In this document: in pieces, positions 16,370-33,934 of the stretch
Layout: each line of letters starts with the position of its first letter
Position numbering within the stretch: the stretch's first letter is position 1
NCBI GenBank assembly: GCA_003194485.1
Contig: PQXD01000003.1
Location: 33,067 to 97,066 of the forward strand
Source: Deltaproteobacteria bacterium
GTDB lineage: Bacteria > Desulfobacterota > Dissulfuribacteria > Dissulfuribacterales > UBA3076
DNA: 64,000 nt
Direction: 5' to 3'
Notes under the pieces: generated by a model
What the model saw: the letters and a program-made list of their open reading frames with translations, nothing else
Told to the model about the DNA's origin: nothing
Databases searched by the model: none
Position numbers and translations under genes: made by a program

Positions 16370-17545
16370 TCAGTCCGCCTTTTGCCTGATAAAGGCAGGG
16401 ATGTCCAATTCACTGTCGTCCAGCTTGTCAAGGCCCTCAAAGTTTGATATCTGTTTTCTCGGCCTTTTTTTCAGGCCTGATTCCAATATGTGATTCATTT
16501 GGATGCAGGTCGTCGGATCACGATCCGGTTTCACAGTTTTATTCTTTTTCTTTATGGATTCTATGTGCTTTTCAAGGGATGGAGCAACAGTCCCTATGCC
16601 GGTGGCTATGACTGTTATCCTGATCTCTTCGTCTATGCCGTCGTCAAATACGGTACCGAGGATGATATTGGCGTCCTCATGGGCCTCGTCACGAATCAAG
16701 GATGATGACTGCTCCACCTCCTCCATACTCAGGGTAGAACTGCTTGCAGTGATATTGATCAGTATGCCCCTGGCTCCGCTTATGGAGATGTCTTCGAGCA
16801 ATGGATTGGCTATGGCCATTTGTACTGCCTCCAGTGCCCTGCGCGATCCCCTGGCAACACCGGTACCCATGAGGGCCATCCCCATTTCAGCCGTGACAGT
16901 GCGAACATCCGCAAAATCCACGTTTATATATCCCTTCAGGACTATGAGGTCTGAAATACCTCTTACTGCATAGTAGAGGACCTCGTCTGCCTTTCGGAAC
17001 ATCTCGAGTATCGGGGTGTTAGGCTGTGCAAGACTTCTGAGACGGTCGTTTGGTATGGTTATTATGGTATCTACAACATCTTTTAATTCTTTTATCCCTT
17101 CTTCTGCAACTTGCGTCCTGCGATTTCCTTCAAAGGAAAAAGGTTTTGTCACTACCGCTACTGTAAGGGCGCCGATTTCCTTACTGATTTCGGCAATGAC
17201 GGGGGCCCCTCCGGTGCCGGTGCCTCCGCCCATGCCGGCAGTGATGAAGACCATATCGCTTCCTTCCAGCATTGCCCGGATATCGTCTACGCTCTCTTCT
17301 GCGGCCTCCCTGCCGATTTCAGGTTTTGCCCCTGCTCCGAGTCCCCTGGTGAGCCCTTTACCCAGTTGAATCTTATTAGAGGCCAAAGACATTTCAAGGG
17401 CCTGGGAATCCGTATTTGCAGCCACAAATTCAACCCCCTTGAGTTCGGAGGCTATCATGTTGTTAATAGCGTTTCCGCCTCCGCCTCCGACTCCTATTGC
17501 CTTTATCTTTGCACTGAGGTTTGGTTCTATAAACTCAAACGACAT
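16370..17545 (-). CDS. ftsZ: cell division GTPase FtsZ
   Basis: The tubulin signature is GVGGGGGNAINNM. The ATG at 17545 is preceded by GGAGGA; the track ORF is 13 codons longer. Confidence 0.95.
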   Translation of the reverse strand: MSFEFIEPNLSAKIKAIGVGGGGGNAINNMIASELKGVEFVAANTDSQALEMSLASNKIQLGKGLTRGLGAGAKPEIGREAAEESVDDIRAMLEGSDMVFITAGMGGGTGTGGAPVIAEISKEIGALTVAVVTKPFSFEGNRRTQVAEEGIKELKDVVDTIITIPNDRLRSLAQPNTPILEMFRKADEVLYYAVRGISDLIVLKGYINVDFADVRTVTAEMGMALMGTGVARGSRRALEAVQMAIANPLLEDISISGARGILINITASSSTLSMEEVEQSSSLIRDEAHEDANIILGTVFDDGIDEEIRITVIATGIGTVAPSLEKHIESIKKKNKTVKPDRDPTTCIQMNHILESGLKKRPRKQISNFEGLDKLDDSELDIPAFIRQKAD

Positions 17546-17568
17546 ATGTTTGGTCCTCCAACTGATAT

Positions 17569-18792
17569 TTAAATCTTGAACCATGACTTCATGCGAAGGG
17601 TTACCCGATTGAATATGTTTCCATCCCTTATCCGGAATTTCTTTCTGGGTTGACTTTCCATGCCGAAGAGCACAAGACCCACGGCAGTAGCGAACATGGG
17701 TCCGTTGACCACGTCCACCAGGCCGGAGATCCGTTGCGGAAAACCGATTCTCGTCGGCAACTGGAATACCTGGTCTGCGATCTCGGCAATTCCGGGCAGC
17801 AGGGCAGAGCCTCCGGTTATAACAACTCCTCCGGCCAATAGTTCTTTAAGTCCCGTCCGTTCCATTTCCTGGTCAATCAGTGTAAAAATCTCCTCCACCC
17901 TGGGCTCAAGTATCTCAGACAATATGTGTCTGGACAGAAGCCTGGGTTTGCGCCCTCCCACACTGGGGACTTCTATCATCTGGTCTTTATCCACAAGGGA
18001 ACTGAGGCAACTGCCGTGACGTGTCTTTATTTGTTCGGCCTCCTTGACAGGCGTCCTTAACCCGACTGCTATGTCATTAGTAAGGTTGTTACCGCCAAGT
18101 CCCAGCACCGCCGTGTGTTTTATTGCACCATCAGTAAACAGGGCAAGATCCGTGGTGCCGCCCCCGAAGTCCACAAGGGCCACCCCGAGGTCCTTTTCTT
18201 CCTGGGTTAGGACGGCCTCGGCCGAGGCAAGGGGCTGAAAAACTATGTCAACTACATCGAGTCCCGCCCTGTTTGCGCACTTGATAAGGTTCTGGGCAGC
18301 CGTAACCGCTCCTGTTACTATATGTACCTTGGCTTCCAGCCTTACCCCGGTCATACCGACAGGATCCAGGATCCCTCTCTGCTCATCCACCATATACTCT
18401 TGAGGCAGAATATGAATAACCTCCCTGTCGAGGGGTATGGCCACCGCCCTTGCCGCATCTATGACCCTGTCAACGTCCTCCTGGGAGACCTCCTGGCCCT
18501 TTACAGCTATCACCCCATGGCTATTGAAGCCTTTTATATGGCCGCCGGCAATGCCGATTAACACAGAGCCTATCTCGCACCCGGCCATGAGCTCCGCCTC
18601 TTCCATAGCCCTCCGTATGGAATCAACGGTGTTGTCTATATTGACAACCACTCCCTTCCGGAGACCTACGGAAGGGTGAGTTCCCACGCCTATAATATCA
18701 GCACCCTTACTGTTGAATTCACTCACTACCGCACATATTTTAGTGGTGCCGATATCCAGACCGACGATTATGTCACCCGGCCTCTCGACCAT
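17569..18792 (-). CDS. ftsA: cell division protein FtsA
   Basis: Actin-like ATPase fold (VGLDIGTTKICAVV, DFGGGTTD) in dcw synteny. Confidence 0.93.
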   Translation of the reverse strand: MVERPGDIIVGLDIGTTKICAVVSEFNSKGADIIGVGTHPSVGLRKGVVVNIDNTVDSIRRAMEEAELMAGCEIGSVLIGIAGGHIKGFNSHGVIAVKGQEVSQEDVDRVIDAARAVAIPLDREVIHILPQEYMVDEQRGILDPVGMTGVRLEAKVHIVTGAVTAAQNLIKCANRAGLDVVDIVFQPLASAEAVLTQEEKDLGVALVDFGGGTTDLALFTDGAIKHTAVLGLGGNNLTNDIAVGLRTPVKEAEQIKTRHGSCLSSLVDKDQMIEVPSVGGRKPRLLSRHILSEILEPRVEEIFTLIDQEMERTGLKELLAGGVVITGGSALLPGIAEIADQVFQLPTRIGFPQRISGLVDVVNGPMFATAVGLVLFGMESQPRKKFRIRDGNIFNRVTLRMKSWFKI

Positions 18793-18800
18793 TTCCTCTC

Positions 18801-19655
18801 CTAATCTTTCAGACTGACCAGGGCCTGACCGGGACCGTAGTCCAGTTCAACTTTAGCCACTTTTTTATATTTTCCTGAACTATAAAGTTGATACAGGACT
18901 TTTTCCGCCTTACTGAACTGAGAGTTGAGGTCTTCAGTATCAAAGTGAAAAGGAATACCGCTGTCAGCCGTATAGAGTATTAAGGTGTCTTTTCCGGCTA
19001 TGTGTATCTGGCTTATGTTATTGACACCCAGAGTTCTTGTACCTCTGCCTGCCATGGATATTAATTCCAGGGCCTTTTGGATCTGGTGATCTGGTGATTC
19101 GGTGATCTGGTGATTCTCTGTGTACTTCGGATCAATTCCTGTGATGATGGGAAGAGATACGGGCTCTTCCGCAGAAAGTAGTTCATCGATAATCTTACCC
19201 TGCTCATCAATCAAATAGATCTTGTCAGAATTCAATAGGGCTACCGGAGTGCGTTCTTTGATCGTGATCATCAAGTGGTCCGGCAGCTCTCTCTCAACTT
19301 CAACGGCATTGACCCAGGGATGCGCCTCTATGTTCGTTGCGATTGATTCCAGATCGAGAGACATGAGATTGTCCCGGGCGGTTACACCGCTGATCTGCAA
19401 AACCTCCTCTTCTGTGAGATGATTGCAGCCTTTCACCAGGACCTGGCCGACCCTGAAAAGTTCAGACCGACATACCCAATGCCAACACACAAAAAGGCCG
19501 GCAAGAACCAGGCATGCCGAGGCCATGGCGATCAACATTTTGGGATGGATAGACCACGATACCGGAAATATCAGACTGGTCCACGGGCCTGATCCATGCA
19601 TTGAAGACCTGAATTCTGTGGACGTCCTTCTGATCTTCATGTCTCCATACCCCAA
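18801..19655 (-). CDS. ftsQ: cell division protein FtsQ
   Basis: Single TM segment plus POTRA/FtsQ domains, positioned between murB and ftsA. It contains an in-frame octamer array (19081-19116). Confidence 0.8.
   Translation of the reverse strand: MGYGDMKIRRTSTEFRSSMHGSGPWTSLIFPVSWSIHPKMLIAMASACLVLAGLFVCWHWVCRSELFRVGQVLVKGCNHLTEEEVLQISGVTARDNLMSLDLESIATNIEAHPWVNAVEVERELPDHLMITIKERTPVALLNSDKIYLIDEQGKIIDELLSAEEPVSLPIITGIDPKYTENHQITESPDHQIQKALELISMAGRGTRTLGVNNISQIHIAGKDTLILYTADSGIPFHFDTEDLNSQFSKAEKVLYQLYSSGKYKKVAKVELDYGPGQALVSLKD
19081..19116. repeat. tandem octamer array (ATCTGGTG x4, one variant ATTCGGTG) inside ftsQ
   Basis: ATCTGGTGATCTGGTGATTCGGTGATCTGGTGATTC is read directly. It encodes ..NHQITESPDHQI.. 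Confidence 0.9.
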
Positions 19656-20542: not shown

Positions 20543-21926
20543 TCGCTGGCTCCTTTGTCTTAAGCATGTCCAGAATTTTCGTTCCTATACGGCCTATAGT
20601 GCCGGCACCGAGTGTTATGACCACGTCATCCTCCTGGAGACTTGATATAATTGCCCCGGGAAGGTCCCCGCAGGACTCCACATAATGCACCTGCCTGCCC
20701 TGTTTATCCCTGATATTTCTGGCCAGACGTCTTCCACTGACTCCGACTATGGGGGTTTCGCCGGCTGGATAGATCTCTGTCAGCCACAGTTCATCAGCCT
20801 CCCCAAAGGCCGTGGTGAAATCGTCCATTAACATCCGGGTCCTGCTGTACCGGTGGGGTTCAAAAAGAACCACGAACCGGCGTTCAGGCCAACATGTCCT
20901 GGCAGCCGCGAGTGTGGCCAGTATCTCAGTAGGGTGGTGCGCATAATCATCCACTATTGTTATCCCTTCTGCCTCACCCAGTATCTCAAATCGTCTGCCT
21001 ACACCTTCATATGACATGAGACCGGTCCGGATCTTGTGAAAGGGTATCTCAAGTTCAAGGCCCAGGGCCATTGCAGCCAGGGAATTTCTTACATGGTGCA
21101 GCCCCGGGACCTTGAGTTGTATCCTGCCGAGTTCGGCGTTCTGCCACCAGGCCCTGAAGGATGCTCCCAGGCCTTCGAAGTGTATGTCTCTGGCCTGCAG
21201 ATCAGACTCGGGTCCTGTCCCGTAAGTCATTACCCGTTTTTTTACTGCCGGGAGCATCTCTCTGAGGCGGGGGTCATCTCCGCAGAGTATGGCAAGGCCA
21301 TAGAAAGGGATTTTGTCTATGAAGTCCAGAAAACACCGGATTATGGCATTCATGTCTGCATAATAGTCCAGGTGCTCTCTGTCTATATTGGTTACCACGG
21401 CTATGCTTGGCGTAAGGCGCAGGAAACTCCCGTCACTCTCATCGGCTTCTGCTATCAGGAACTCGCCCTGTCCCCAACAGGCATTGCTTCCAATACCATT
21501 CACCTTTCCCCCTATGATGACCGTCGGATCAAGGCCGGCTGCGCGAAGCACAGAAGAGATCATAGAGGTCGTGCTGGTCTTTCCGTGAGCACCGGCCACT
21601 GCTATGCCGAACTTCTTGAGCCGCATCAATTCCGCAAGCATTTCAGCCCTCGGTATGACAGGAATTTGAGAGGAATAGGCCTCCTGGACTTCGGGGTTGC
21701 TTTCCCTGACGGCAGAAGAAATCACCACTACATCGGCTCCCTGAATATTTTCAGGGGCATGACCCTTATAGATTATGCCCCCCAGCTTATTGAGACACCT
21801 GGTGATTTCAGTCTCACATAAATCAGAACCTGTGATTGTATATCCAAGATTGAGAAGGACCCTTGCAAGTCCGCTCATGCCTATTCCGCCGATTCCCACA
21901 AAATGAATATGCTGTTTTTTATACAT
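20532..21926 (-). CDS. murC: UDP-N-acetylmuramate--L-alanine ligase
   Basis: IHFVGIGGIGMSGLA and the P-loop GAHGKTSTT. Confidence 0.93.
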   Translation of the reverse strand: MYKKQHIHFVGIGGIGMSGLARVLLNLGYTITGSDLCETEITRCLNKLGGIIYKGHAPENIQGADVVVISSAVRESNPEVQEAYSSQIPVIPRAEMLAELMRLKKFGIAVAGAHGKTSTTSMISSVLRAAGLDPTVIIGGKVNGIGSNACWGQGEFLIAEADESDGSFLRLTPSIAVVTNIDREHLDYYADMNAIIRCFLDFIDKIPFYGLAILCGDDPRLREMLPAVKKRVMTYGTGPESDLQARDIHFEGLGASFRAWWQNAELGRIQLKVPGLHHVRNSLAAMALGLELEIPFHKIRTGLMSYEGVGRRFEILGEAEGITIVDDYAHHPTEILATLAAARTCWPERRFVVLFEPHRYSRTRMLMDDFTTAFGEADELWLTEIYPAGETPIVGVSGRRLARNIRDKQGRQVHYVESCGDLPGAIISSLQEDDVVITLGAGTIGRIGTKILDMLKTKEPAIAF

Positions 21927-23115
21927 GACTATGCAGTGTAGAATCTTTCAATGAATTATTCCCTGCTTCAGAACATGAAAGACTATGGCAGGCCATCTTT
22001 ATCAGCGTGGCGGCTATTTCTGCGGCTGCCATGGGTCTTCCGAGTTTTCGAGCATTTTTCCCCATATTAGCGAGTTTTTCAGGATCCTCAAGCAAGGACT
22101 GTATCTCTCCTGCCAGTTTGACAGCACCTATTTCTCCCTCCCGGAAATATTTTGCAGCCCCGGCCACAGACAGTTCTCTGGCATTGGCCTCTTGATGCAT
22201 ATCTGTTGCCGATGGATAGGGAATCAGTATAGAGGGCCTTCCAAGGGCTGTGACCTCGGCCAGCGTACCTGCACCGGCCCGGCAGATAACCAGATCCGCC
22301 CAGGAATAGGATTCACCAATATCGGATATAAATGGAGTCACTCTGGCCGGAATGTCTGCGTCCTTGTAAAATTTCTCAATATCCGGCACATCCAGCTTAC
22401 CGGTTTGGTGGATAATTTCCACATGAAAACCGGATTGCCACAAGACCTGAATGGCCGAACAGACAAGCCGGTTCAGGCATCTGGCACCCTGACTTCCCCC
22501 CAGCACCAGGAGCCTGGAATCTGGTGATCTGGTGATCTGGTGATCTGGTGATTGAATAATGTCTTTCCGTATGGGATTTCCGGTGAAAATTACCCTGTTT
22601 TTTGGAAAGTATCTGGCAGTTTCCTTGAAGCTCACAAACACGGTCTTTGCAAATCTTGAGGCCAGACGGTTCGTGAGCCCGGGGATGAGATTCTGTTCAT
22701 GGATGGCAACGGATACCCGCAATATTCTTGCTGCAAGCAGCACGGGCCCGGAGACATATCCCCCTACACCCAATACCACATGAGGCCTGAATGATTTAAG
22801 CCACAAAAAGGCCCTGGCAGCGGAGGAGGGAAGCCCGGCCAGAGAGCATATGGTTCCTGCAAGGCCTGAGCCCCTGAGAGGTCTTGTACTCAGGATGCGA
22901 TAATCCCATTGACGCCCTGAGAGTGCATCTTTTTCCACCGGACGGCCCGTGCCTATCCACAAGACATCCACATGACCGTATATTTCCATGGCTTCAGCCA
23001 CGGCTATTCCCGGAAACACATGTCCTCCCGTACCACCACCGGCTACGACCAATTTGGTGGTTTGGTGATCCGGGTTGCGGATTACGGATTGCGGATTGCG
23101 GATTGCGATGTCCAT
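21919..23115 (-). CDS. murG: undecaprenyldiphospho-muramoylpentapeptide beta-N-acetylglucosaminyltransferase MurG
   Basis: VVAGGGTGGHVFPG and GGSQGA motifs. The ATG lies 4 nt after the murD stop. The gene carries two in-frame repeat arrays. Confidence 0.9.
   Translation of the reverse strand: MDIAIRNPQSVIRNPDHQTTKLVVAGGGTGGHVFPGIAVAEAMEIYGHVDVLWIGTGRPVEKDALSGRQWDYRILSTRPLRGSGLAGTICSLAGLPSSAARAFLWLKSFRPHVVLGVGGYVSGPVLLAARILRVSVAIHEQNLIPGLTNRLASRFAKTVFVSFKETARYFPKNRVIFTGNPIRKDIIQSPDHQITRSPDSRLLVLGGSQGARCLNRLVCSAIQVLWQSGFHVEIIHQTGKLDVPDIEKFYKDADIPARVTPFISDIGESYSWADLVICRAGAGTLAEVTALGRPSILIPYPSATDMHQEANARELSVAGAAKYFREGEIGAVKLAGEIQSLLEDPEKLANMGKNARKLGRPMAAAEIAATLIKMACHSLSCSEAGNNSLKDSTLHSHV
22519..22553. 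repeat. tandem octamer array (ATCTGGTG x4) inside murG
   Basis: The unit is the same as in ftsQ. It encodes IIQSPDHQITRSPDS at the inter-domain linker just before LVLGGSQGA. Confidence 0.9.
23072..23106. repeat. tandem heptamer array (GGATTGC-type x5) at the murG 5' end
   Basis: GGGTTGC GGATTAC GGATTGC GGATTGC GGATTGC encodes IAIRNPQSVIRNP immediately after the ATG. Confidence 0.9.
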
Positions 23116-23119
23116 TTAT

Positions 23120-24529
23120 TCAATCACCCAGTTCCAGGACTGCCTTCTGAAAGGCCATGCCCCGTTCTTCATAGTTCCTGAACATATCAAAGCTGGAACA
23201 GGCCGGGGAAAGGAGTACGGCATCACCCGGCTCGGCCAGGGACATAGCCTCTCTTACGGCTTTCTCCATGGTCTTTTTGCCGTCTTTTGTTCCGCGCACT
23301 TCGATAACCGGTATTACCTTGCTCAGGACCCTTTCAAATGCCCCGGCCTCCTCTCCCATGACAACCGCGCTGCGAATGCGTCCCCCTTTTGCAGTTTCTG
23401 CCAGTGATGAGTAATCTTCACCCTTGCCGCGGCCGCCGGCAATCAGCACTATTGGCTGCCCTATGGATTTAAGGGCACAGAGTACGGATGCCATATTGGT
23501 GGCCTTGGAGTCGTCATAATAGTCTATGCCTCCATATTGGGCCACCCACTGAAGCCTGTGGGGCGCGGCTTTGAAGCTGCGGACAACAGACTGCACGGCA
23601 CCTGCACCTGCACCTGCCAGACGTGAAATAAGTATGGCGCAAGCCAGGTTTTGAGCGTTGTGCAGGCCCTTCAGTGACCAGCCTTCCAGATCATATTCCT
23701 CACATTTATTATCATGCCACATGACGTTGATCTTTTTCAGGGATGTGTCCAGCACTGCTCCGGGAACCCCGGGGCGCAGTCCTCCGAAGCAGAGCCTTCT
23801 GGCACGCCCTCTGTTCTTCCACTTTTCCAGTTCCTTGTCGTCCATATTGCGGATGGCCCAATCTTCAGGCCACTGGAAATCGTATATTACTGCCTTGCTC
23901 TCTCCGTAACTTCTGATGTCCCGGTAGCGGTCAAGGTGATCCGGGGCAAGATTGAGCCATGCCGCTATCCTGAACCTTGGAGGACGGAAGGGGAAGTATT
24001 TGACCCTGGGGAAGTAATCCAACTGGAAGCTGCTGATTTCAAGAACCGCAATAGTTTCACCGGTGTGTCTTTCAATGAACATAGATAATGGCTGCCCGAT
24101 GTTCCCTGCCTTTACATGAGGCACACCGGCCTTTTCTAACATCTCATCCACGAGCATCGTGGTAGTGGTTTTCCCGTTTGTGCCGGTTATGCCGATTAAA
24201 GGCCCCTTCCAAAAAGATGCCGCAAGGGCCAGCTCCCCGACCACAGGTATATTGGACCTGCGTGCGGCCTCAAGGGCAGGGGTTTCATGCGGAACACCCG
24301 GGCTGACCACAATCAGATCGGATGAGAGGCAGGTCTCCACCTCATGTCTTTTCGTCTCCACCCTAACGCCGTTTTCGTCACACCAGTCTGCCAGTCCCTC
24401 GGGCCACCTGTCCAGTGGATTCAAGTCGCTGCACGTGACTTGCGCCCCCTGGGAGACGATCCATCCGGCAGCCGCCTGTCCGGATACACCCATGCCCAGT
24501 ACTGTTACTTTCCTGCCTTTCAGTTCCAC
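23120..24529 (-). CDS. murD: UDP-N-acetylmuramoylalanine--D-glutamate ligase
   Basis: VLGMGVSGQAAA Rossmann N-terminus and the P-loop GITGTNGKTTTT. Confidence 0.93.
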   Translation of the reverse strand: MELKGRKVTVLGMGVSGQAAAGWIVSQGAQVTCSDLNPLDRWPEGLADWCDENGVRVETKRHEVETCLSSDLIVVSPGVPHETPALEAARRSNIPVVGELALAASFWKGPLIGITGTNGKTTTTMLVDEMLEKAGVPHVKAGNIGQPLSMFIERHTGETIAVLEISSFQLDYFPRVKYFPFRPPRFRIAAWLNLAPDHLDRYRDIRSYGESKAVIYDFQWPEDWAIRNMDDKELEKWKNRGRARRLCFGGLRPGVPGAVLDTSLKKINVMWHDNKCEEYDLEGWSLKGLHNAQNLACAILISRLAGAGAGAVQSVVRSFKAAPHRLQWVAQYGGIDYYDDSKATNMASVLCALKSIGQPIVLIAGGRGKGEDYSSLAETAKGGRIRSAVVMGEEAGAFERVLSKVIPVIEVRGTKDGKKTMEKAVREAMSLAEPGDAVLLSPACSSFDMFRNYEERGMAFQKAVLELGD

Positions 24530-25647: not shown

Positions 25648-28600
25648 CTATCCTCCTCCCAGATGCCTGATAAGGGCATCTGCTGCCTTCTCAAGGCCTA
25701 CGGCCCGTGATCCCTTTACGAGTATAATTGCCGGGGAAGGCATGCAATCAAGAGCGTCTGATTCTATCCATGAAAGCAAATCCTCCGTGTCGGGGAAGAT
25801 GCGGATAGCCTCTTGCGAAATACCCGCCTTTTTTGCAGCCCCGGAAACAGTATCAGCAAACCGGCCTGCTGAAACTAAAAGATCAACCCCTGTTTGGGCT
25901 GCAAGCCGTCCGAGATCCTGATGAAACTTGCGAGCGGCATTGCCGAGTTCCAGCATGTCTCCCAGGATCGCTATCTTTTTCTCGCCCCTGCTCCAGAATT
26001 CGAGGGTCTCAAGGGCCGCTCTCGCAGAACCGGGATTTGCATTATAAGAATCGTCTATCAGCCTCCATCCGGATCCAAGATTCTTCAGAAACAGACGGCC
26101 CGGAACCGGTTTCACTTCCTCAAGCCCCTGCTTTATACTGACCGGCTTCAGCCCCACTGCATGGCCTGCAGCCGCGGCTGCAACGGCATTCTGCACGTTC
26201 GCCTTACCTATGAGGGAAAGATCGACAGAGAGCCTGCTTCCCGCGATATCCAGGTCCAGCAGAGTGCCATGCTCGACCGGGGTCCAGGACAGGCAAGTGA
26301 TTGCAGCTTTGAGCTTTGAGCTTTGAGCTTTGAGTTGGGGATTGGGTGTCAGAGAATAACCCACTATCCGGCACGTCAGATCTTTTGCCCCTTCAGTAAC
26401 CAGTGGGTCGTCAAGGTTCATCACTGCCACACCCGTCCGGGGAAGGGCTCTCCAGAGTCCCCATTTTTCTTCGGCCACTTCTTTTATGCCCCCCAGGCCG
26501 ACAAGATGGGCAGGCTGTATGGTAGTAATAAGGCCCGCTTGCGGCTGAGCGATTTCGCACAGCCGGGATATCTCTCCGGGCCGGTTCGTTCCCATCTCCA
26601 GCATTACCCAGGAGTCATCGGTTTTGGCCGAAAGCAGGCTGAGGGGAAGTCCGATAAGGTTGTTGAAATTCCCCGGGGTCTTAGCCACTTTCCATTTCTT
26701 CCCCAGGATCGAGGAAATCAGTTCTTTTGTTGTGGTCTTGCCGCAACTACCTGTAATGCCGATCACCTTGATTCCGAGGTATTCCCTGTACCATGATGCG
26801 AAGTCTCCCAGGCTCTTCAAGGTATCCTGAACTTTCAACAGGACCGGACGGGATCGAGGGCTGAAAGCCGAAAGTCCAGGGTCAGGAATCGAACTGACTA
26901 CGGCACCAACGGCGCCTTTTCTTATGGCTTCGAGGACAAAGTCATGGCCGTTGAAGCGGTCCCCTGGAAGCGCCCAGAATATATTCCCTGTTCTCACCGA
27001 TCTGGAATCTGTTGATACGCCATGGATTGATATGTCAGGATCACCCGAAAGGACTCGGGCTCCAATGGCCTTTGCCACCTGGGAGGCCTTTAATCGAAAT
27101 CCCTGATCCTCAAGAACCTCTACTTTTGACTCTTGTCTTTTATTCCCTGAACCCTGAACCCTGAACCCTGAACCCTGAACCCTGCCTTTTGACCCAAAGG
27201 CCTCTTTCAATACCTCTCTATCGTCAAAGGCAAATCGCCCGCTGCCGATTATCTGGCATGTTTCGTGGCCCTTCCCTGCCACCAGCAGGCAGGCGCCGGG
27301 GCGCGCTCTTTCCGCCGCCCATGATATGGCGTCCCTCCTGTCCGGAATTACCTTCACTTTTGCTCTGTTTGCAGGATGATGAGGCGGAAGGTCCCTGAGG
27401 CCGTTCAACATCTGCTCGAGTATGGCAAGAGGGTCTTCAGTGCGGGGATTGTCAGAGGTCAGCACAACAATATCCGCGAGTGAAGCCGCTGCCTGCGCCA
27501 TAAGAGGACGCTTACTCCGGTCCCTGTCCCCACCGCAGCCGACTACGCAAATCACGGGCCTGAATCCTAATGTAACAAGGCTGTTCAGGACACATTCAAG
27601 GGCATCAGGTGTGTGAGCATAATCTACAAAAGCAGTCACTCCATTGGGAGTGCACACAGGATCGAGTCTCCCCGGAATGCGCGTCACTGATTCTATACCG
27701 GCCTGAATATGGTCCGTATCTATCCCGAGGGCGATTGAAGCCGCTACTGCTGCAAGGATGTTATAGAGATTATAGGAACCCGTAAGCCTGGATCTGAAAG
27801 AAACAGGCCCTCTGGGCGTGACAAGCCTGCCTGTTATTCCATCAATATTGATGGACTGCGACTCAGGCCTCACCTCGGCCTCAGGACTGAGACCATAACT
27901 GATCTTTTCTTTTTGCAGAATCTCCCACAGTCGCCTTCCATGGAGGTCATCAATATTAATAATTGCCGCACCAGAGGGATGCTCCAAAAACAGTTTTGCC
28001 TTAGCCCGGAAATATCGTTCCATGTCTTGGTGATAATCCAGGTGATCGCGGCCCAGATTGGTAAAGACAGATGCGGCGAAACTGCACCCGGAGATCCTTC
28101 GCTGGTCAATGGCATGAGAAGATACCTCCAAGGCCGCCGCTTTTACTCCTTGTTCCAGCATATCTGCCAGAATCTTTTGCAGTCTTACGGCATCCGGGGT
28201 GGTGAGTTCGGAAGGTACCTCCACACCTCCATGTCTCCTGTTTATAGTCCCTATTACACCAGGGTTCAGTCCGGCTTTGCTGAAGATTCCTTCCATGAGA
28301 TATGTGATCGTGGTCTTACCATTAGTGCCCGTAACGGCTACGAGGTCCATTTTTTCACTGGGGTTTCCATAAAAGGCACTTGCCAGGAGGCCGGTTGAGA
28401 GCCTGGGATCGTCAACCCCTATAACAGGAAGTGTTCCAGGTACGGATTCGATATAATAACGTCGGGCGTCCTGGCCCGGCACTAACAGGACAGCGGCTCC
28501 TTTCTCTACGGCATCACTGATAAATTGTCTTCCGTCAAATTCAGTGCCTGGAATTGCCGCGAATACGTATCCCTGCTTCACCTGCCTGGAGTCTGCGGAT

Positions 28601-28725
28601 ATGCCCGTGATTTTTACGTCATCAAGGTCCGATGGAGAAAAAACGGTGGGCCTAACAGGTCTGAGCACTCCCAACATATCCCGTAATGCCCTTTCGTTCT
28701 GCATGTTATTAGACATCACTTGCAC
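25648..28725 (-). CDS. murE-murF: fused MurE (meso-DAP-adding ligase) and MurF (D-Ala-D-Ala-adding ligase), 1025 aa
   Basis: Two complete Mur-ligase modules with P-loops VAVTGTNGKTT (N-terminal half) and ITGSCGKTTT (C-terminal half). They are joined by the linker GRVQGSGFRVQGSGNKRQESKVEVLEDQG. Confidence 0.9.
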   Translation of the reverse strand: MQVMSNNMQNERALRDMLGVLRPVRPTVFSPSDLDDVKITGISADSRQVKQGYVFAAIPGTEFDGRQFISDAVEKGAAVLLVPGQDARRYYIESVPGTLPVIGVDDPRLSTGLLASAFYGNPSEKMDLVAVTGTNGKTTITYLMEGIFSKAGLNPGVIGTINRRHGGVEVPSELTTPDAVRLQKILADMLEQGVKAAALEVSSHAIDQRRISGCSFAASVFTNLGRDHLDYHQDMERYFRAKAKLFLEHPSGAAIINIDDLHGRRLWEILQKEKISYGLSPEAEVRPESQSINIDGITGRLVTPRGPVSFRSRLTGSYNLYNILAAVAASIALGIDTDHIQAGIESVTRIPGRLDPVCTPNGVTAFVDYAHTPDALECVLNSLVTLGFRPVICVVGCGGDRDRSKRPLMAQAAASLADIVVLTSDNPRTEDPLAILEQMLNGLRDLPPHHPANRAKVKVIPDRRDAISWAAERARPGACLLVAGKGHETCQIIGSGRFAFDDREVLKEAFGSKGRVQGSGFRVQGSGNKRQESKVEVLEDQGFRLKASQVAKAIGARVLSGDPDISIHGVSTDSRSVRTGNIFWALPGDRFNGHDFVLEAIRKGAVGAVVSSIPDPGLSAFSPRSRPVLLKVQDTLKSLGDFASWYREYLGIKVIGITGSCGKTTTKELISSILGKKWKVAKTPGNFNNLIGLPLSLLSAKTDDSWVMLEMGTNRPGEISRLCEIAQPQAGLITTIQPAHLVGLGGIKEVAEEKWGLWRALPRTGVAVMNLDDPLVTEGAKDLTCRIVGYSLTPNPQLKAQSSKLKAAITCLSWTPVEHGTLLDLDIAGSRLSVDLSLIGKANVQNAVAAAAAGHAVGLKPVSIKQGLEEVKPVPGRLFLKNLGSGWRLIDDSYNANPGSARAALETLEFWSRGEKKIAILGDMLELGNAARKFHQDLGRLAAQTGVDLLVSAGRFADTVSGAAKKAGISQEAIRIFPDTEDLLSWIESDALDCMPSPAIILVKGSRAVGLEKAADALIRHLGGG
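26305..26339. repeat. tandem heptamer array (AGCTTTG x4 plus one degenerate unit) inside the MurF module
   Basis: AGCTTTGAGCTTTGAGCTTTGAGCTTTGAGTTGGG encodes PQLKAQSSKLKAA. Confidence 0.9.
27145..27184. repeat. tandem heptamer array (CCCTGAA x5.5) forming the murE-murF junction
   Basis: CCCTGAACCCTGAACCCTGAACCCTGAACCCTGAACCCTG encodes RVQGSGFRVQGSG on the minus strand. The same heptamer occurs intergenically at 50373-50397. Confidence 0.9.
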
Positions 28726-30296
28726 GTTATGTTGCAGACCTTCACGCCCTTAAGGGGCATTCCTGATCTTGGTTTCTGCGCGACCACGGTCCCTGCGCCC
28801 TTGAGTTTGATAGAAAGGCCTATGGATTGCAGAATGTCCATTGCCTGTCTTGCGGATTTTCCCTTGAGGTTTGGCATCATGGATAGATCTTTTTTGGTTT
28901 CTTTGCTTTTTGCCGTTTGCCATTCGTCGTTCAAAGGTATCTGTGCCGCCTGTTTTACCACCAACAGTGCCCGGCCTAAAGTGCCCCGGCGCTTACGAGG
29001 GTCAATTTTTACGCCATCGAGAAAACCAATATAACTTACTTTGGGTGATCTGTCGGGCCAGAATCCCAGAACCGTGACCTGGGCCGGAGATCGGATGGAT
29101 ATTCGTCCGGCCTGTCCATTCCACCTGATGCTCGCAAGAGAAGGCCCTGACCTGACTGCGAGATTTTTCCGCGATCTGAGCATAAGCTCTTCTGTTAACC
29201 ATGGGACTTTGACCTGCCTCTGGTCCTTCACGGAAGACTCGGATGGCGGGAATTCCTTACGGCCTTTCTGCAAGGCCAGGTGTGGCGTTACCAATATATT
29301 TCCATTTATCAGTGCTGAGAAGGCCCTGAGAATCTGGATCGGGCTGGCTGTAATGCCTCGGTATAGTAAGCAGTTCTGCAGCCCCGGCAGGACTGAAGAC
29401 AGGCTGCCCTGACCTTCAGCCGGAAGATCAATACCTGTCGTCTGGCCAAATCCCAGACCCCAGAGATCCCTTGACAGGCCATCGTAAGAGACAAGGTCTT
29501 TCAGCTCCTGTCCAGTCCAGGGACTCCACAGGACCACACCTTCATCCAAGGTCTCCCATTTACACTTGCAGGCCGTTCGGTCTGGAGATTGGTTTTTTGA
29601 TTTTGGCTGCTCACTTTGTTCAAACATCCAGCTCAAGAGAGTCACAAGGACTATTGGGTCGACATCATCCTGCAGGGAGTAATTTGTAATGTTCGTCGCA
29701 GGCAGCTCCCAAAAACGTCCCGGGTCCCAGGAGGGCTTGCTGGCCATGGCGAGAATCTCGCCGTTTTCAACGCTCATTATGACAAGACAGCCCTTATCGG
29801 CCTTAAGTCTTCTAAGTTGCCTGTCAAGCTCCCTTTCTGCCAGTGCCTGAATGTCTTTTTCGAGGGTAAGTATAAGTTCCTGCCCGCCCGGATAAGTCAG
29901 GGATATATTCGTATGGCTCAAAAGGCTGTTGTAAGTGTATTCAACTCCCTCGAGGCCTCTGCCGCCGCGATCGATAAACCCCAAAACCGGAGAAGCCAGT
30001 GAACCGCAAGGATATACCCTTTTATATTCGGAAGGCCTTGCCAGGCCGCAGTCCTTCTTACGGCTCACGGCGAATACCGCTCCTGCCCTGTCAAGAATTA
30101 TGCCCCTGTACAAGGGGCTTTTCGGGGAATAGTAGTCACGGCTCCGTTGCCGGGAAAACTTGGAGGAATCAGCGTCATCTTCGCTATTGACATTATTGCC
30201 CTGCCAAAAGCAGCCAACAAACGGTGCGGTAAAGATCACAAGACCTGCCAGGCCGAAAAGAAACAAAATTCTCTTATTTTTATAAGGAAAACTCAT
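28716..30296 (-). CDS. ftsI: FtsI/PBP3-like class B penicillin-binding protein homolog with degenerate catalytic motifs and a C-terminal PASTA-like domain
   Basis: N-terminal TM segment and dimerisation-domain pattern, then GCLVIMSVENGEILAMASKPSWDP and FGQTTGIDLP...ITASPIQILRAFSALINGN. The expected SxxK, SxN and KTG positions read D-P-IVLV, SRD and IRSP. Confidence 0.7.
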   Translation of the reverse strand: MSFPYKNKRILFLFGLAGLVIFTAPFVGCFWQGNNVNSEDDADSSKFSRQRSRDYYSPKSPLYRGIILDRAGAVFAVSRKKDCGLARPSEYKRVYPCGSLASPVLGFIDRGGRGLEGVEYTYNSLLSHTNISLTYPGGQELILTLEKDIQALAERELDRQLRRLKADKGCLVIMSVENGEILAMASKPSWDPGRFWELPATNITNYSLQDDVDPIVLVTLLSWMFEQSEQPKSKNQSPDRTACKCKWETLDEGVVLWSPWTGQELKDLVSYDGLSRDLWGLGFGQTTGIDLPAEGQGSLSSVLPGLQNCLLYRGITASPIQILRAFSALINGNILVTPHLALQKGRKEFPPSESSVKDQRQVKVPWLTEELMLRSRKNLAVRSGPSLASIRWNGQAGRISIRSPAQVTVLGFWPDRSPKVSYIGFLDGVKIDPRKRRGTLGRALLVVKQAAQIPLNDEWQTAKSKETKKDLSMMPNLKGKSARQAMDILQSIGLSIKLKGAGTVVAQKPRSGMPLKGVKVCNITCK

Positions 30297-30307: not shown

Positions 30308-30673
30308 TCAATTAAGTGATATTATCTGTCTGTCGGCAGGTGGATGAAGTCCCATTTTTTTCCCCAGCTTTTCCAAGCGGCTTCGTGCTTTGAGCCGGTC
30401 CACCTGAGTGCTGAAATCCTGATATTGAGCACTGAGACGGCCCTTCTCAGCCTGAAGGAGCTCTATATCCTTTGCTGTTTTTCGTGTCTGGTGAGCAGTC
30501 CAGAACCCCAGAGTTAACAGGACAGCCAGGGCAAATATGATAGCGATTGCCATTTGACGGGTTGTCTTGAGTACTTTTGAGAAAGAAAGGCCGGTGCCGG
30601 TTCTGTTTTTTTGTGCCATTGGAACATATGAACGTCTCTGAGGTATTCTGATCGTCGCTGGTCGAGGACTCAT
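30308..30673 (-). CDS. ftsL: cell division protein FtsL
   Basis: Small bitopic protein with one TM segment and a coiled-coil region (IELLQAEKGRLSAQYQDFSTQVDRL), positioned between rsmH and ftsI. Confidence 0.75.
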   Translation of the reverse strand: MSPRPATIRIPQRRSYVPMAQKNRTGTGLSFSKVLKTTRQMAIAIIFALAVLLTLGFWTAHQTRKTAKDIELLQAEKGRLSAQYQDFSTQVDRLKARSRLEKLGKKMGLHPPADRQIISLN

Positions 30674-30721: not shown

Positions 30722-31636
30722 TTAATTGGGTTGCGCCAGCAGTTCTATACATTGAGCTACTCTCAGTTTGGCACTCCTGGCCCTGGGATTAATGCGTATC
30801 TCCTCAGGGCCCGGTACCAGAGGTTTCTTGGTCAAGGGTTTCAGTCTGTTATCTTCTCTGAAAGCGGTCTTTACCAGACGGTCTTCAAGGGAATGAAAAG
30901 AGATAATACACAGTCGTCCCCCAGGTTTCAGGCAGGACGGGAATGTATTAAGGGCCTCTTCAAGGTCGTCCAGCTCTCTGTTCACAGCGATTCGAAGCGC
31001 CTGGAAGGTCCTCGTGGCGGCATGAATTCGGCGGGGATGGTATTTCCTGGGAATGGCATTGGCAACCACCTTTGCCAAGTCCGCCGAGGTCAGAATCGGG
31101 GCGGTCTTCCGCCTGTCACATATGCATTTGACAATTCTCTTTGCCCATCTCTCTTCTCCGTATGTCTGGATAAGCTCGGTCAATCTTTCTGCCGGAAGCT
31201 TGTTGACCAGATCGGCAGCAGTCACTGCGCCGGAGAGATCCATTCGCATGTCAAGGGGCTCGTCTCTGGAAAAACTGAAGCCCCTCCCGCTGTTTTCCAG
31301 GTGGAAGGTGGAAATTCCGAGGTCCATGAGTATCCCGTCAACTTGCCCTATTCTGTTGGATAAGAGGATATCATGGAGATGGATAAAGTTGCTGTGAATC
31401 AATCGAATTACCCCTTCTCCAAATGGGCTCAACCTGGATTTGGCCCGCTCCAGGGTTTCTATGTCACGGTCAAGGCCGAGGACCAATTTGATCCCGGGGT
31501 ACCTTGTCAACATGGCCTCCGCATGGCCTCCCAGCCCCAGTGTTGCATCAACATAGATCCCTCCGGACCCCGGCGAAAGACTATCCAGTACTTCAGAGAC
31601 CATTACAGGTACATGTCTGGTCTCCTTTTCAGCCAC
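30722..31636 (-). CDS. rsmH: 16S rRNA (cytosine1402-N4)-methyltransferase RsmH
   Basis: HVPVMVSEVL..., DATLGLGGHAEA and the SFHSLEDR motif. The GTG at 31636 overlaps the mraZ stop (GTGGCTGA). The longer track ORF runs through mraZ. Confidence 0.9.
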   Translation of the reverse strand: MAEKETRHVPVMVSEVLDSLSPGSGGIYVDATLGLGGHAEAMLTRYPGIKLVLGLDRDIETLERAKSRLSPFGEGVIRLIHSNFIHLHDILLSNRIGQVDGILMDLGISTFHLENSGRGFSFSRDEPLDMRMDLSGAVTAADLVNKLPAERLTELIQTYGEERWAKRIVKCICDRRKTAPILTSADLAKVVANAIPRKYHPRRIHAATRTFQALRIAVNRELDDLEEALNTFPSCLKPGGRLCIISFHSLEDRLVKTAFREDNRLKPLTKKPLVPGPEEIRINPRARSAKLRVAQCIELLAQPN

Positions 31637-32078
31637 TGGCCCCGAATTTAGCAGTGATACTGCTGCTGTACTCGTCAAAGTTATCCCTCGTTTTTCGCAA
31701 CTCTTTGTCCAGGTTATCCTTGTTCGAGACCTCGAAGTAAGTAAGCATGCCCGAGAGGACCACATCCTTGGTAAGCCCCGCTTCTTCACGGAGCCTCAGA
31801 GGGATCAATATCCTTCCCTGGCCGTCCAAGGGACATTCCGCTGCTGCTCCCAACAAATACCTTTTAAAGGCGACGACCTCAGGAGGTCCGAATTGGAACC
31901 GGCTGAAATGCTCTTCTATTTTTCGCCATTCTTCAAAAGGATAAGCTGCGAGACAGGAGGGCAGGTTGGTGACTATCAACCGGCCATCGTATTTTGCCTG
32001 CAAGACCTCTCTGAAACGGGCCGGGATGCTGAGACGGCCCTTGGCGTCTAAGACATGGGCCGACCTTCCCCTGAACAT
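31629..32078 (-). CDS. mraZ: transcriptional regulator MraZ
   Basis: Duplicated SpoVT/AbrB-like halves with DAKGRLSIPARFR and DGQGRILIPLRLR. Confidence 0.93.
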   Translation of the reverse strand: MFRGRSAHVLDAKGRLSIPARFREVLQAKYDGRLIVTNLPSCLAAYPFEEWRKIEEHFSRFQFGPPEVVAFKRYLLGAAAECPLDGQGRILIPLRLREEAGLTKDVVLSGMLTYFEVSNKDNLDKELRKTRDNFDEYSSSITAKFGASG

Positions 32079-33538: not shown

Positions 33539-33934
33539 GTAAATATTCTTATGAACCCGTCCGTGGTCCACTGCGCAGACCGTTCACTGGCAGGGGATAT
33601 TTCTTTTCACTTAACACTTCAGCCCCTTGTTTTCTTAAGGCTTTTGACATGGGGGAGTCTTGCCCCCTCCCCGTTCTCCTTCGCTGCGCTCAGGAGCCGG
33701 GGTTTCCCCCACAGCAAAAGCCAAGAAAACTACGGGGGCTTCCGTTAAACTGTTCAAAGAAATATCCCCTTCCCGTGAACGGTTGCCATCCGTGCCCTGC
33801 CGCAGGAGCGGTTTGCCTTTTGCAGGGTTTCGATCGCGGGCCAAATTGCACTGCCCCTTTCGGTCTGCAATGAGTGAGCTTTGAAACCCGGAAAAAGGTA
33901 ACCGCTTCAAGGCAGGATATATTAGAATATTTAC
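33539..33934 (-). mobile_element. MITE copy B (396 bp, inverted relative to A and C)
   Basis: Near-identical to copy C across module 1 and the hairpin module. The flanks AGAGAATT and GAAGAATC are only partly similar. Confidence 0.85.

What the first reader, a model, noticed from the sequence alone, without database searches (positions are those of the whole stretch)
28716..30296. The dcw-cluster FtsI homolog appears to lack all three transpeptidase motifs
The protein keeps the PBP3 architecture: TM anchor, GEILAMASKPSWDP, FGQTTGIDLP, ITASPIQILRAFSALINGN and a PASTA-like tail. By eye-alignment to E. coli FtsI, the expected EPGS-T-V-K reads DVDP-IVLV. The SSN (SxN) position reads SRD. The KTGTA position reads IRSPA. 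The only SxxK strings (SRKK, SSVK) are out of context. A catalytically dead PBP3 in the division cluster would imply a scaffolding role, with septal cross-linking done by another PBP or an L,D-transpeptidase.
Basis: partly seen in the sequence, partly recalled or inferred. Interest (0 to 1): 0.55.

Follow-up and report, generated by a model that had tools for sequence, protein, structure and literature searches.

The report
Catalytically dead FtsI, no FtsW
The cell-division gene cluster of this methane-seep sulfate reducer (Seep-SRB2) keeps a well-conserved FtsI-like protein that has lost every residue needed to cross-link cell wall, and its usual partner gene ftsW is missing from the cluster, so this lineage probably builds its division septum with other enzymes.

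Summary
The ORF at 28716-30296 (-), 526 aa, is a class B penicillin-binding protein by Pfam, sequence and predicted fold. It lies between ftsL and murE. It has none of the seven active-site residues: Ser-x-x-Lys is V216/T219, the SxN position reads W257-S258-P259, and the beta3 KTG position lies in GPSLASIRW (384-392).

- It is not a pseudogene. dN/dS is 0.23-0.24, the same as neighbouring mur genes.
- About 150 related 90%-identity sequence clusters from Thermodesulfobacteriota MAGs (Dissulfuribacterales, Desulfobulbales/Desulfobulbaceae), in at least three subfamilies, lack all seven residues or nearly all of them. About 160 canonical relatives keep all of them.
- ftsW is absent from the cluster: murD abuts murG. 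The same holds in 12/12 fetched loci with a dead FtsI (10 organisms besides the window's), against 0/37 loci with a canonical FtsI.
- murE and murF are fused here.
- The window comes from Seep-SRB2 G37, the ANME-1 partner.

Best reading: a non-catalytic divisome subunit retained after loss of the FtsW-FtsI synthase, with septal wall made by other synthases. A whole-genome PBP/SEDS inventory could not be done. I found no report of this in the searched literature.

The parts
28716..30296 (-). ftsI-like gene (PXF55520.1, C4B57_02530): class B PBP homolog, 526 aa, lacking all transpeptidase active-site residues
30210..30275 (-). N-terminal hydrophobic anchor, residues 8-29 (KRILFLFGLAGLVIFTAPFVGC). 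It ends in a lipobox-like FVGC; the canonical juxtamembrane GRLxxLQ is absent
   Evidence: model helix 8-30; lipobox-like rule matches 39/77 short dead FtsI against 3/163 canonical; the window protein itself fails by Pro at -4
30114..30209 (-). Polar/acidic linker, residues 30-61, predicted disordered
   Evidence: pLDDT <50 for residues 28-60
29682..30113 (-). Pedestal (non-penicillin-binding) module, roughly residues 62-205. It lacks the segment that aligns to E. coli FtsI 97-163, which the 585-aa relatives keep
   Evidence: the profile alignment to P. aeruginosa PBP3 is strongest here (123 bits)
29637..29666 (-). Motif-1 equivalent DVDPIVLVTL (211-220): catalytic Ser -> V216, Lys -> T219
   Evidence: helix alpha2 starts at 215
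29517..29531 (-). Motif-2 (SxN) equivalent LWSPW (256-260): S359 -> W257, N361 -> P259
   Evidence: gap-rich region, +/-1 residue uncertain; no Asn in any register
29115..29147 (-). Motif-3 (KTG, strand beta3) equivalent GPSLASIRWNG (384-394); no Lys-Thr/Ser-Gly
   Evidence: strand 387-392 in the model
28974..29066 (-). Family-specific conserved block GFWP...DPRxRRGTLG (411-441) in the transpeptidase-like domain
   Evidence: invariant G411, W413, P414, P418, Y422, D432, G441 in alignment A3
28719..28877 (-). C-terminal PASTA domain (residues 474-526)
   Evidence: Pfam PF03793, 5e-8; 26/33 family members have it
30308..30673 (-). ftsL, immediately upstream
   Evidence: TIGR02209, 1.8e-9
25648..28725 (-). 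Fused murE-murF (1025 aa), immediately downstream
   Evidence: NF008896, 2.9e-272; TIGR01085 and TIGR01143 on the two halves
21919..24529 (-). murD (23120-24529) directly followed by murG (21919-23115), 4 nt apart. This is where ftsW normally sits, and it is empty
16370..19655 (-). ftsQ (18801-19655), ftsA (17569-18792) and ftsZ (16370-17584): the rest of the divisome core is retained

Best explanation
The gene encodes the dcw-cluster ortholog of FtsI (PBP3). It has become a pseudo-transpeptidase.

Shown:
- It keeps the membrane anchor, pedestal, penicillin-binding fold and PASTA domain.
- The nucleophile Ser, the general-base Lys, the SxN residues and the KTG residues are all replaced by non-catalytic residues (V216, T219, W257, P259, and I/R/W or P/S/L in beta3).
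- It is under the same purifying selection as the neighbouring mur genes.
- It is conserved in at least three subfamilies of Thermodesulfobacteriota.
- Wherever it occurs, ftsW is missing from between murD and murG.

Inferred. In an ancestor of these lineages the FtsW-FtsI septal synthase was lost as an enzyme pair: ftsW was deleted and FtsI was inactivated. The FtsI polypeptide was kept as a structural or regulatory divisome subunit, working with the retained FtsL, FtsQ, FtsA and FtsZ. Through its pedestal and its remodelled, tryptophan-rich former active-site region plus PASTA domain, it would position or regulate another peptidoglycan synthase. Glycan polymerisation and 4-3 cross-linking of the MurF-made pentapeptide precursor would then be done by other enzymes, most likely RodA-PBP2 and/or a class A PBP encoded elsewhere.
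For: - Loss of all seven catalytic residues.
- Class B PBP fold retained.
- Selection: dN/dS 0.23 (vs L002) and 0.24 (vs L003), against murEF 0.22, murG 0.21 and murB 0.24. The transpeptidase-like domain alone gives 0.23-0.28.
- Intact orthologs at 31-79% identity with their own invariant residues (W247, W257, GFWP, DPR...G).
- The pedestal aligns to P. aeruginosa PBP3 much better (123 bits) than the catalytic domain does (33 bits).
- Breadth: about 35 dead clusters at 50% identity head a search of 1.84 billion representatives, and about 25 further dead types lie among the next 110.
- ftsW/SEDS is absent from 12/12 dead-FtsI loci and present in 37/37 canonical loci (Fisher p = 1e-11; not phylogenetically independent).
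- The lipid II pathway is intact in the window: murB, C, D, EF, G, mraY, glmM, mltG.
- ftsL, Q, A and Z are retained.
- Literature: ftsW was not found in four Desulfobulbaceae genomes, while mreBCD-pbpA-rodA is present (PMC7873302). C. difficile divides without FtsW/FtsI, using a class A PBP (PMC10693644). Catalytically inactive bPBPs still support division in B. subtilis and C. difficile (as summarised in PMC12516126).
- Seep-SRB2 cells are rods (PMC5947290), which by inference implies an elongasome.
Against: - The rest of the Seep-SRB2 G37 genome (2.55 Mb, 167 scaffolds) could not be searched. A relocated ftsW, a second canonical bPBP or an L,D-transpeptidase cannot be excluded or confirmed.
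- Divisome localisation and any partner are inferred only from gene position and homology.
- The window subtype has lost about 60 residues of the pedestal, and relatives carry a lipoprotein-like N-terminus. Both could mean that the canonical interfaces with divisome partners are also gone.
- The ftsW correlation probably reflects one or a few ancestral events, not 12 independent ones.
- The Desulfobulbaceae report rests on annotation searches by other authors. I could not confirm that cultured Desulfobulbus FtsI is dead.
Confidence: 0.6

Rival explanations
1. This is a dead bPBP that still serves a SEDS polymerase encoded elsewhere. ftsW has merely moved out of the dcw cluster, or RodA is shared. 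The dead FtsI still binds and allosterically activates it, and a second, active bPBP supplies the cross-links, as with B. subtilis PBP2B(S309A) plus PBP3.
For: - The pedestal, which mediates SEDS activation in canonical pairs (established knowledge), is the part best conserved relative to canonical FtsI.
- Precedents for catalytically inactive bPBPs that are still required exist (PMC12516126).
- ftsW lies outside the dcw cluster in Bacilli (PMC10693644).
Against: - In all 12 dead-FtsI loci ftsW is gone from its conserved slot, whereas all 37 canonical loci keep it. Relocation alone gives no reason for FtsI to lose catalysis.
- Genome-wide searches by others found no ftsW in four Desulfobulbaceae genomes (PMC7873302).
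- The N-terminal helix that contacts FtsW in canonical complexes is replaced in many family members by a lipoprotein-type signal followed by a disordered linker.
Confidence: 0.2
2. The protein is neofunctionalised. The former transpeptidase domain has acquired a different activity or ligand, for example peptidoglycan or lipid II sensing, or hydrolysis by a new set of residues. It is no longer a structural divisome part.
For: - The transpeptidase-like domain is as constrained as the pedestal (dN/dS 0.23-0.28).
- It has new family-invariant residues, several of them tryptophans lying at or near the old motif positions (W257, W413; also W247, W260), plus Y422, D432 and R434.
- The PASTA domain is retained.
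Against: - No conserved Ser/Cys/Lys/His constellation is evident among the invariant residues.
- The gene keeps its position between ftsL and murE in every locus.
- Nothing links it to another pathway.
Confidence: 0.12
3. The gene is a decaying relic with no function.
For: - All catalytic motifs are lost.
- This subtype has a 60-residue pedestal deletion.
- Pfam recognises only a third of the transpeptidase profile.
Against: - The gene has an intact reading frame in every full-length ortholog examined, in independent assemblies.
- dN/dS of 0.23-0.24 equals that of essential neighbours.
- There are 38 invariant columns across sequences as low as 31% identical.
Confidence: 0.02
4. This is an alignment artefact: the protein is an active transpeptidase whose motifs sit at shifted positions.
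For: - The region between motif 1 and 'GFGQ' is gap-rich, and HMMER cannot align it.
- SxxK strings exist (SRKK 78, SEYK 89, SSVK 354).
Against: - The protein contains no K[ST]G at all.
- The SxxK strings lie in the pedestal or in a disordered loop and are not conserved.
- Three independent alignments and the model's helix and strand boundaries agree on motif 1 and on beta3.
- One family member (P0043) has no SxxK anywhere.
Confidence: 0.02

Closest known systems
FtsI / PBP3 of E. coli and P. aeruginosa (class B PBP, the divisome DD-transpeptidase)
   Same: Same gene position (mraZ-rsmH-ftsL-ftsI-murE...). Same architecture of N-terminal anchor, pedestal and penicillin-binding fold. Best structural matches are PBP3/PBP2 (E 1e-24 to 1e-21) and best PDB sequence matches are FtsI.
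   Different: - It has no SxxK, SxN or KTG.
- No ftsW is adjacent.
- Part of the pedestal is deleted (the part aligning to E. coli 97-163).
- It has a lipobox-like end to the anchor and a disordered linker.
- It scores far below the curated cut-offs (FtsI NF011685: 49 against 737 bits).
Engineered catalytically inactive division bPBPs (B. subtilis PBP2B S309A backed up by PBP3; C. difficile SpoVD/PBP3)
   Same: A division bPBP whose transpeptidase activity is dispensable or absent while the polypeptide is still needed (PMC12516126).
   Different: Those are laboratory point mutants with an intact cognate SEDS. Here the inactivation is natural, ancient and complete (all seven residues), and the cognate SEDS gene is missing from the cluster.
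C. difficile divisome without a canonical FtsW-FtsI pair (class A PBP1 makes the septum)
   Same: FtsZ, FtsQ and FtsL are retained but there is no functional FtsW/FtsI pair for vegetative division. This is a precedent for septal synthesis by a non-cognate synthase (PMC10693644).
   Different: The dcw-encoded pair in C. difficile (SpoVD/SpoVE) is catalytically intact and repurposed for sporulation. Here the SEDS gene is gone and the bPBP is dead. The organism is a diderm, non-sporulating sulfate reducer.
Desulfobulbaceae (cable bacteria, Desulfobulbus), reported to lack ftsW
   Same: Same phylum. ftsW was not found genome-wide, and fused genes are flagged in their dcw table. The mreBCD-pbpA-rodA cluster is present (PMC7873302). 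MAGs labelled Desulfobulbaceae carry dead FtsI (P0445).
   Different: That paper assumes FtsI is an active septal synthase. It does not note the loss of catalytic motifs. I could not retrieve the FtsI of the cultured strains to check.
SpoVD (TIGR02214), the best NCBIfam match and a frequent automatic annotation of relatives
   Same: bPBP with a C-terminal PASTA domain.
   Different: Scores 114 bits against a cut-off of 688. The organism is not a sporeformer, so the label is an annotation artefact.

Membership tests
Class B penicillin-binding protein (FtsI/PBP3 type) | N-terminal membrane anchor, pedestal (PBP dimerisation) module and penicillin-binding/transpeptidase fold | tested here: met
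   Pfam PF00905, PF21922 and PF03793. PF03717 is found in 23/33 relatives. The AF2 model matches PBP3/PBP2 structures, E down to 6e-24.
Class B penicillin-binding protein (FtsI/PBP3 type) | Active-site motif 1, S-x-x-K (nucleophile Ser and Lys at the start of helix alpha2) | tested here: not met
   V216 and T219
Class B penicillin-binding protein (FtsI/PBP3 type) | Active-site motif 2, S-x-N | tested here: not met
   W257-S258-P259; no Asn in any register
Class B penicillin-binding protein (FtsI/PBP3 type) | Active-site motif 3, K-T/S-G on strand beta3 | tested here: not met
   GPSLASIRW (384-392). There is no K[ST]G anywhere in the protein.
Class B penicillin-binding protein (FtsI/PBP3 type) | Covalent binding of beta-lactams / DD-transpeptidase activity | not testable with these tools
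   Needs Bocillin-FL labelling or an in vitro cross-linking assay.
FtsI ortholog (divisome bPBP) | Encoded between ftsL and murE in the dcw cluster | tested here: met
   the same position is found in 12 related loci
FtsI ortholog (divisome bPBP) | Cognate SEDS polymerase FtsW (normally between murD and murG) | tested here: not met
   murD and murG are 4 nt apart. tblastn with E. coli FtsW and RodA finds nothing in the 64-kb window (E<=1) or in 12 dead-FtsI loci. The rest of the genome was not testable.
FtsI ortholog (divisome bPBP) | Score above the curated family cut-offs (NCBIfam FtsI, SpoVD, MrdA) | tested here: not met
   49 against 737, 114 against 688 and 68 against 455 bits
Pseudoenzyme (catalytically dead homolog kept by selection) | Catalytic residues lost, but the gene is under purifying selection and conserved across species | tested here: met
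   dN/dS 0.23-0.24; 33-sequence family with 38 invariant columns; dead in all family members
Bacterial lipoprotein (PROSITE PS51257-type signal) | Basic n-region, hydrophobic h-region, lipobox [LVI..][..][AGS]C | tested here: inconclusive
   A regex approximation matches 39/77 short dead FtsI against 3/163 canonical. The window protein has FVGC29 but Pro at -4 breaks the rule. No signal-peptide predictor was available.
PASTA-domain protein | PF03793 match above the gathering score | tested here: met
   33.2 bits against 23.2

The most novel reading that the evidence does not exclude
A whole branch of Thermodesulfobacteriota (Dissulfuribacterales including the ANME partner Seep-SRB2, Desulfobulbales/Desulfobulbaceae-type lineages and relatives) divides with FtsZ, FtsA, FtsQ and FtsL but without the supposedly near-universal FtsW-FtsI septal synthase. 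On this reading its FtsI ortholog has been converted into a dedicated non-enzymatic adaptor. In one subfamily it would be a lipid-anchored protein on a flexible tether with a tryptophan-lined former active site. The adaptor would couple the FtsQLB module to a non-cognate synthase (RodA-PBP2 or a class A PBP).
Probability: 0.3. Interest if true: 0.8.

Novelty: new variant of a known kind. Interest (0 to 1): 0.62.

Why it matters
FtsW-FtsI is treated as the essential and nearly universal engine of septal wall synthesis, and as the target of division-specific beta-lactams.

A diverse natural clade has kept the FtsI polypeptide for a long time after removing its chemistry, and has deleted ftsW from the cluster. 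This is a natural separation-of-function experiment. It isolates the non-catalytic role of a division bPBP and asks which synthase a FtsQLB-type divisome can recruit instead.

It also predicts that these sulfate reducers, including the syntrophic partners of methane-oxidising archaea and possibly cable-bacteria relatives, have no PBP3-type drug target. Automatic annotations such as 'FtsI', 'SpoVD' or 'peptidoglycan D,D-transpeptidase' would then be wrong for hundreds of database entries.

Tried and rejected
1. Whole-genome inventory of PBPs, SEDS and Ldt.
   - This was not possible. Only the window could be scanned, and it contains none.
   - Attempts to walk beyond the window with the look-up of encoding contigs returned only shorter contigs that lie inside it.
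2. Finding a cultured organism with a dead FtsI.
   - The searches seeded with SG8_35 (P0062) and with L006 returned only MAGs.
   - The cluster look-ups gave MAG names only: Dissulfuribacterales, Desulfobulbaceae, Thermodesulfobacteriota.
   - L006, labelled 'Desulfobulbaceae', groups with Dissulfuribacterales sequences.
3. Phylogeny.
   - The first script timed out.
   - A single NJ tree of 42 sequences put all dead sequences in one clade, with families A and B each monophyletic.
   - The bootstrap loop crashed, so there are no support values, and long-branch attraction is possible.
4. Literature.
   - Nine searches found no report of a naturally dead FtsI in Desulfobacterota.
   - The Seep-SRB2 papers do not mention peptidoglycan or division.
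5. Residue-level structural superposition: model coordinates are not exposed, so cleft geometry could not be examined.
6. Rejected readings: pseudogene; misaligned motifs; SpoVD (non-sporeformer, far below the cut-off).
7. Rfam found only one tRNA in the window.
Full report
**1. What is at the coordinates**

The ORF 28716..30296 on the minus strand (ATG start, 526 aa) is real. [quoted passage not shown]
- mraZ 31629-32078
- rsmH 30722-31789
- ftsL 30308-30673
- the ftsI-like gene
- a fused murE-murF 25648-28725
- mraY 24565-25644
- murD 23120-24529
- murG 21919-23115
- murC 20532-21926
- murB 19637-20542
- ftsQ 18801-19655
- ftsA 17569-18792
- ftsZ 16370-17584

mltG lies just upstream (32360-33514).

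The protein matches three Pfam families:
- Transpeptidase, E = 2.5e-12, but only positions 94-191 of the 299-position profile
- PASTA, E = 5e-8
- PBP_dimer_2

Its best PDB sequence matches are FtsI/PBP3. An AlphaFold2 model built on an 87-sequence alignment (mean pLDDT 79.7, pTM 0.74) matches class B PBP structures. These are N. gonorrhoeae PBP2, M. tuberculosis PBP3 and P. aeruginosa PBP3, at Foldseek E 6e-24 to 1e-21. It is therefore a class B PBP homolog in the FtsI position.

**2. The motifs are gone**

I fetched E. coli FtsI and aligned it with the query, family members and canonical relatives.

| E. coli FtsI | Window protein |
|---|---|
| S307 | V216 |
| K310 | T219 |
| S359 | W257 |
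| N361 | P259 |
| K494 | I390 |
| T495 | R391 |
| G496 | W392 |

- Motif 1 has independent support. phmmer against PDB FtsI aligns '...qddvdpi' with '...tdvfepg' and stops there. In the model, helix alpha2 begins at residue 215.
- For motif 3, a profile built from the family aligns 'eGPslAs' with P. aeruginosa 'AGKSGTA', which puts Lys on the family-invariant P385. MAFFT puts it on I390. Both fall in the stretch GPSLASIRW (384-392), which forms strand beta3 in the model. That stretch has no K-[ST]-G, and the whole protein contains none.
- The profile alignment breaks exactly over the segment that should carry motifs 1 and 2.
They lie about 18 and 10 residues downstream. This correction does not change the conclusion.
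- The stray SxxK strings are out of context. SRKK (78) and SEYK (89) are in the pedestal. SSVK (354) is in a loop with pLDDT below 50. None is conserved in relatives.

**3. A family trait under selection**

A search of 5.8 billion protein clusters found about 58 close-to-distant relatives (77% down to 31% identity). All come from MAGs labelled Deltaproteobacteria, Thermodesulfobacteriota or Dissulfuribacterales.
- In one alignment with E. coli FtsI, every canonical hit (about 95) has S, K, S, N/D, K, T, G (one has S in place of the final G). Every member of this 'family A' has none of them.
- A second, longer family, 'family B', also lacks all seven. It is about 664 aa, has the motif-1 region YPGELALI, and includes Desulfobacterales bacterium SG8_35 and 'Desulfobulbales' MAGs.
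- A family-A profile was run against 1.84 billion representatives at 50% identity. About 35 clusters scored well above the canonical plateau, all without a functional triad (a few keep a single residue). About 25 further degenerate types lay among the next 110 hits, with motif-1 regions such as FPGALLRL, YPGGLNRL and LPGGIGRM; most lack the whole set, and about ten keep one or two of the residues. Some of them come from 'Desulfobulbaceae bacterium' MAGs.

Codon-level comparison of the window gene with its orthologs in L002 and L003 gives dN/dS of 0.23 and 0.24. This is the same as murEF (0.22), murG (0.21) and murB (0.24). Within the gene, the transpeptidase-like domain gives 0.23-0.28 and the pedestal 0.21-0.22.

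The family has 38 invariant columns. New ones include W247, W257, G411-x-W413-P414, Y422 and D432.

So the gene is functional, and the former catalytic domain is itself constrained.

**4. ftsW is missing**

Between murD and murG, where ftsW sits in the conserved dcw order, there are 4 nt.
- tblastn with E. coli FtsW, RodA, PBP1B and LdtD finds no SEDS, no class A PBP and no L,D-transpeptidase anywhere in the 64 kb. Only the dead FtsI is hit by the FtsI and PBP2 queries.
- Pfam scans of the other 30 large ORFs agree.
- Among loci fetched from GTDB genomes and other assemblies, 12 of 12 dead-FtsI loci that reach murG lack any SEDS. These are ten organisms besides the window's own. All 37 canonical-FtsI loci that reach murG have ftsW immediately upstream of it (Fisher p = 1e-11).
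- That test overstates independence, because the dead sequences form one clade in a rough NJ tree (no bootstrap).
- murE and murF are fused in family A and in the YPGELALI subfamily. They are separate in three other dead-FtsI loci. The fusion is therefore later and not part of the core syndrome.

**5. Whose genome**

The exact protein is PXF55520.1, locus tag C4B57_02530, on a 178,603-nt contig. Supplementary tables of Murali et al. 2023 assign the PXF52718-PXF56089 accessions and the C4B57/PQXD01 tags to Seep-SRB2 G37 (GCA_003194485). This is the partner of ANME-1a in a 37 °C Guaymas Basin methane-oxidising enrichment. Seep-SRB2 is a genus in Dissulfuribacterales. The draft genome is 2.55 Mb in 167 scaffolds at 49% GC, and the cells are rods 0.5-0.8 µm wide. 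The window's GC of about 0.50 fits.

**6. Further anatomy**

- The window subtype (525-527 aa, found in many independent assemblies) lacks about 60 residues of the pedestal that the 585-aa relatives keep. The gap aligns to E. coli FtsI 97-163. From my own knowledge of bPBP structure, not checked against the model, this corresponds to the head subdomain.
- The N-terminus is a basic stretch, then a hydrophobic helix ending in FVGC29, then about 30 disordered polar or acidic residues. The canonical juxtamembrane GRLxxLQ is absent.
- A PS51257-like rule matches 39/77 short dead FtsI proteins, against 3/163 canonical and 4/110 long dead ones. The window protein itself narrowly fails because of Pro at -4.
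- This suggests, but does not show, that the FtsW-contacting transmembrane helix has turned into a lipoprotein signal in part of the family.

**7. Mechanism**

Shown:
- The protein cannot form the acyl-enzyme of a serine DD-transpeptidase.
- It is maintained by selection.
- ftsL, Q, A and Z and the full lipid II pathway, including MurF (and hence a D-Ala-D-Ala-ending precursor), are retained next to it.
- ftsW is not in the cluster.

Inferred:
- It remains a divisome component whose role is structural or regulatory.
- The septum is polymerised and cross-linked by another synthase.

Support from the literature:
- Catalytically inactive division bPBPs still function in B. subtilis and C. difficile when another bPBP cross-links (PMC12516126).
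- C. difficile divides without FtsW/FtsI, using its class A PBP (PMC10693644).
- Four Desulfobulbaceae genomes were reported to lack ftsW genome-wide while keeping mreBCD-pbpA-rodA (PMC7873302).

The main alternative is that a SEDS encoded elsewhere is still its partner.

A neofunctionalised binding or sensing domain is possible. The conserved tryptophans at or near the old motif positions are suggestive of glycan binding, but that is only a guess.

Relic and alignment-artefact explanations are contradicted by the data.

**8. Comparison and novelty**

By homology and position the protein is a member of the class B PBP superfamily and the ortholog of FtsI. It fails the defining catalytic features and the curated family thresholds. 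It should be described as an FtsI-derived pseudoenzyme, not as a D,D-transpeptidase.

Three ideas are already known:
- bPBPs have non-catalytic roles.
- ftsW can be absent.
- A divisome can use another synthase.

I found no report of the following in nine literature searches: a naturally and completely inactivated FtsI ortholog, conserved across a diverse bacterial clade and coupled to loss of ftsW from the dcw cluster. The cable-bacteria paper that noted the missing ftsW still assumed an active FtsI.

I rate this a new variant of a known kind, of moderate to high interest. The main open point is the unverified genome-wide synthase inventory.

Noticed in passing
window 21919-24529 (-): murD is followed by murG after 4 nt, so the conserved ftsW slot of the dcw cluster is empty. 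The same holds in all 12 related dead-FtsI loci, while 37/37 canonical loci have ftsW there.
   Followed up: yes
window 25648-28725 (-): murE and murF are fused into one 1025-aa ORF (NF008896, 2.9e-272, slightly below its cut-off). The fusion is shared by family A and the SG8_35-type loci, but not by three other dead-FtsI loci (L094, L097, L098).
   Followed up: partly
window 30114-30275 (-); relatives P0002-P0058: The N-terminus of the dead FtsI looks like a lipoprotein signal (…FVGC) followed by a 30-residue disordered linker. A lipobox rule matches 39/77 short dead FtsI against 3/163 canonical FtsI.
   Followed up: partly
window about 30020 (-), between residues 88 and 89 of the protein: This subtype (525-527 aa) lacks about 60 pedestal residues (aligning to E. 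coli FtsI 97-163) that the 585-aa orthologs in L002 and L003 retain. The deletion is seen in many independent assemblies.
   Followed up: partly
window 33561-33921, 34618-34979 and 37129-37298: There is a repeated element of about 360 nt. Two copies form a 98%-complementary inverted repeat flanking the tsaC/Sua5-family gene (33949-34593). A third, partial copy (85-94%) lies upstream of 37220. It has no Rfam match and no tRNA.
   Followed up: no
window 5650-7503 (+), 38844-40685 (+), 35074-36882 (-): The window holds several other fused genes. One joins a homocysteine S-methyltransferase domain to MTHFR. One joins a biotin/lipoate ligase-family domain to PdxA. A 602-aa PurD has a C-terminal extension that looks like PurE by eye (not scanned).
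   Followed up: no
window 13168-16347 (+): A cdaA (diadenylate cyclase), ybbR-like and glmM operon converges on ftsZ. It places c-di-AMP signalling and a peptidoglycan precursor gene next to the dcw cluster.
   Followed up: no
L002 (JAIWFS010000004.1): A contig carrying a bacterial dcw cluster 79-90% identical in its mur/mraY/murG proteins to the window (67% for the FtsI homolog, because of the 60-residue indel) is deposited in a MAG labelled 'archaeon isolate JL_RS_05_5'. It is probably a Seep-SRB2-like partner contig mis-binned with its ANME host.
   Followed up: no
L086, L094-L098; proteins P0062, P0180-P0273, P0404-P0507: Further, longer (620-690 aa) FtsI-like families also lack the active-site residues; most lack all seven, and a few keep one or two. 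Their motif-1 regions read YPGELALI, LPGGIGRM, YPGGLNRL, ELGSLVRF and similar. They sit in dcw clusters without ftsW and are annotated as FtsI or PBP3 in public databases.
   Followed up: partly
window 4747-5292 (+), 48310-49785 (-), 41473-41548 (-): A MazF/PemK toxin gene, selA (selenocysteine synthase) and a single tRNA-Glu(CTC) are present. They are ordinary features.
   Followed up: no
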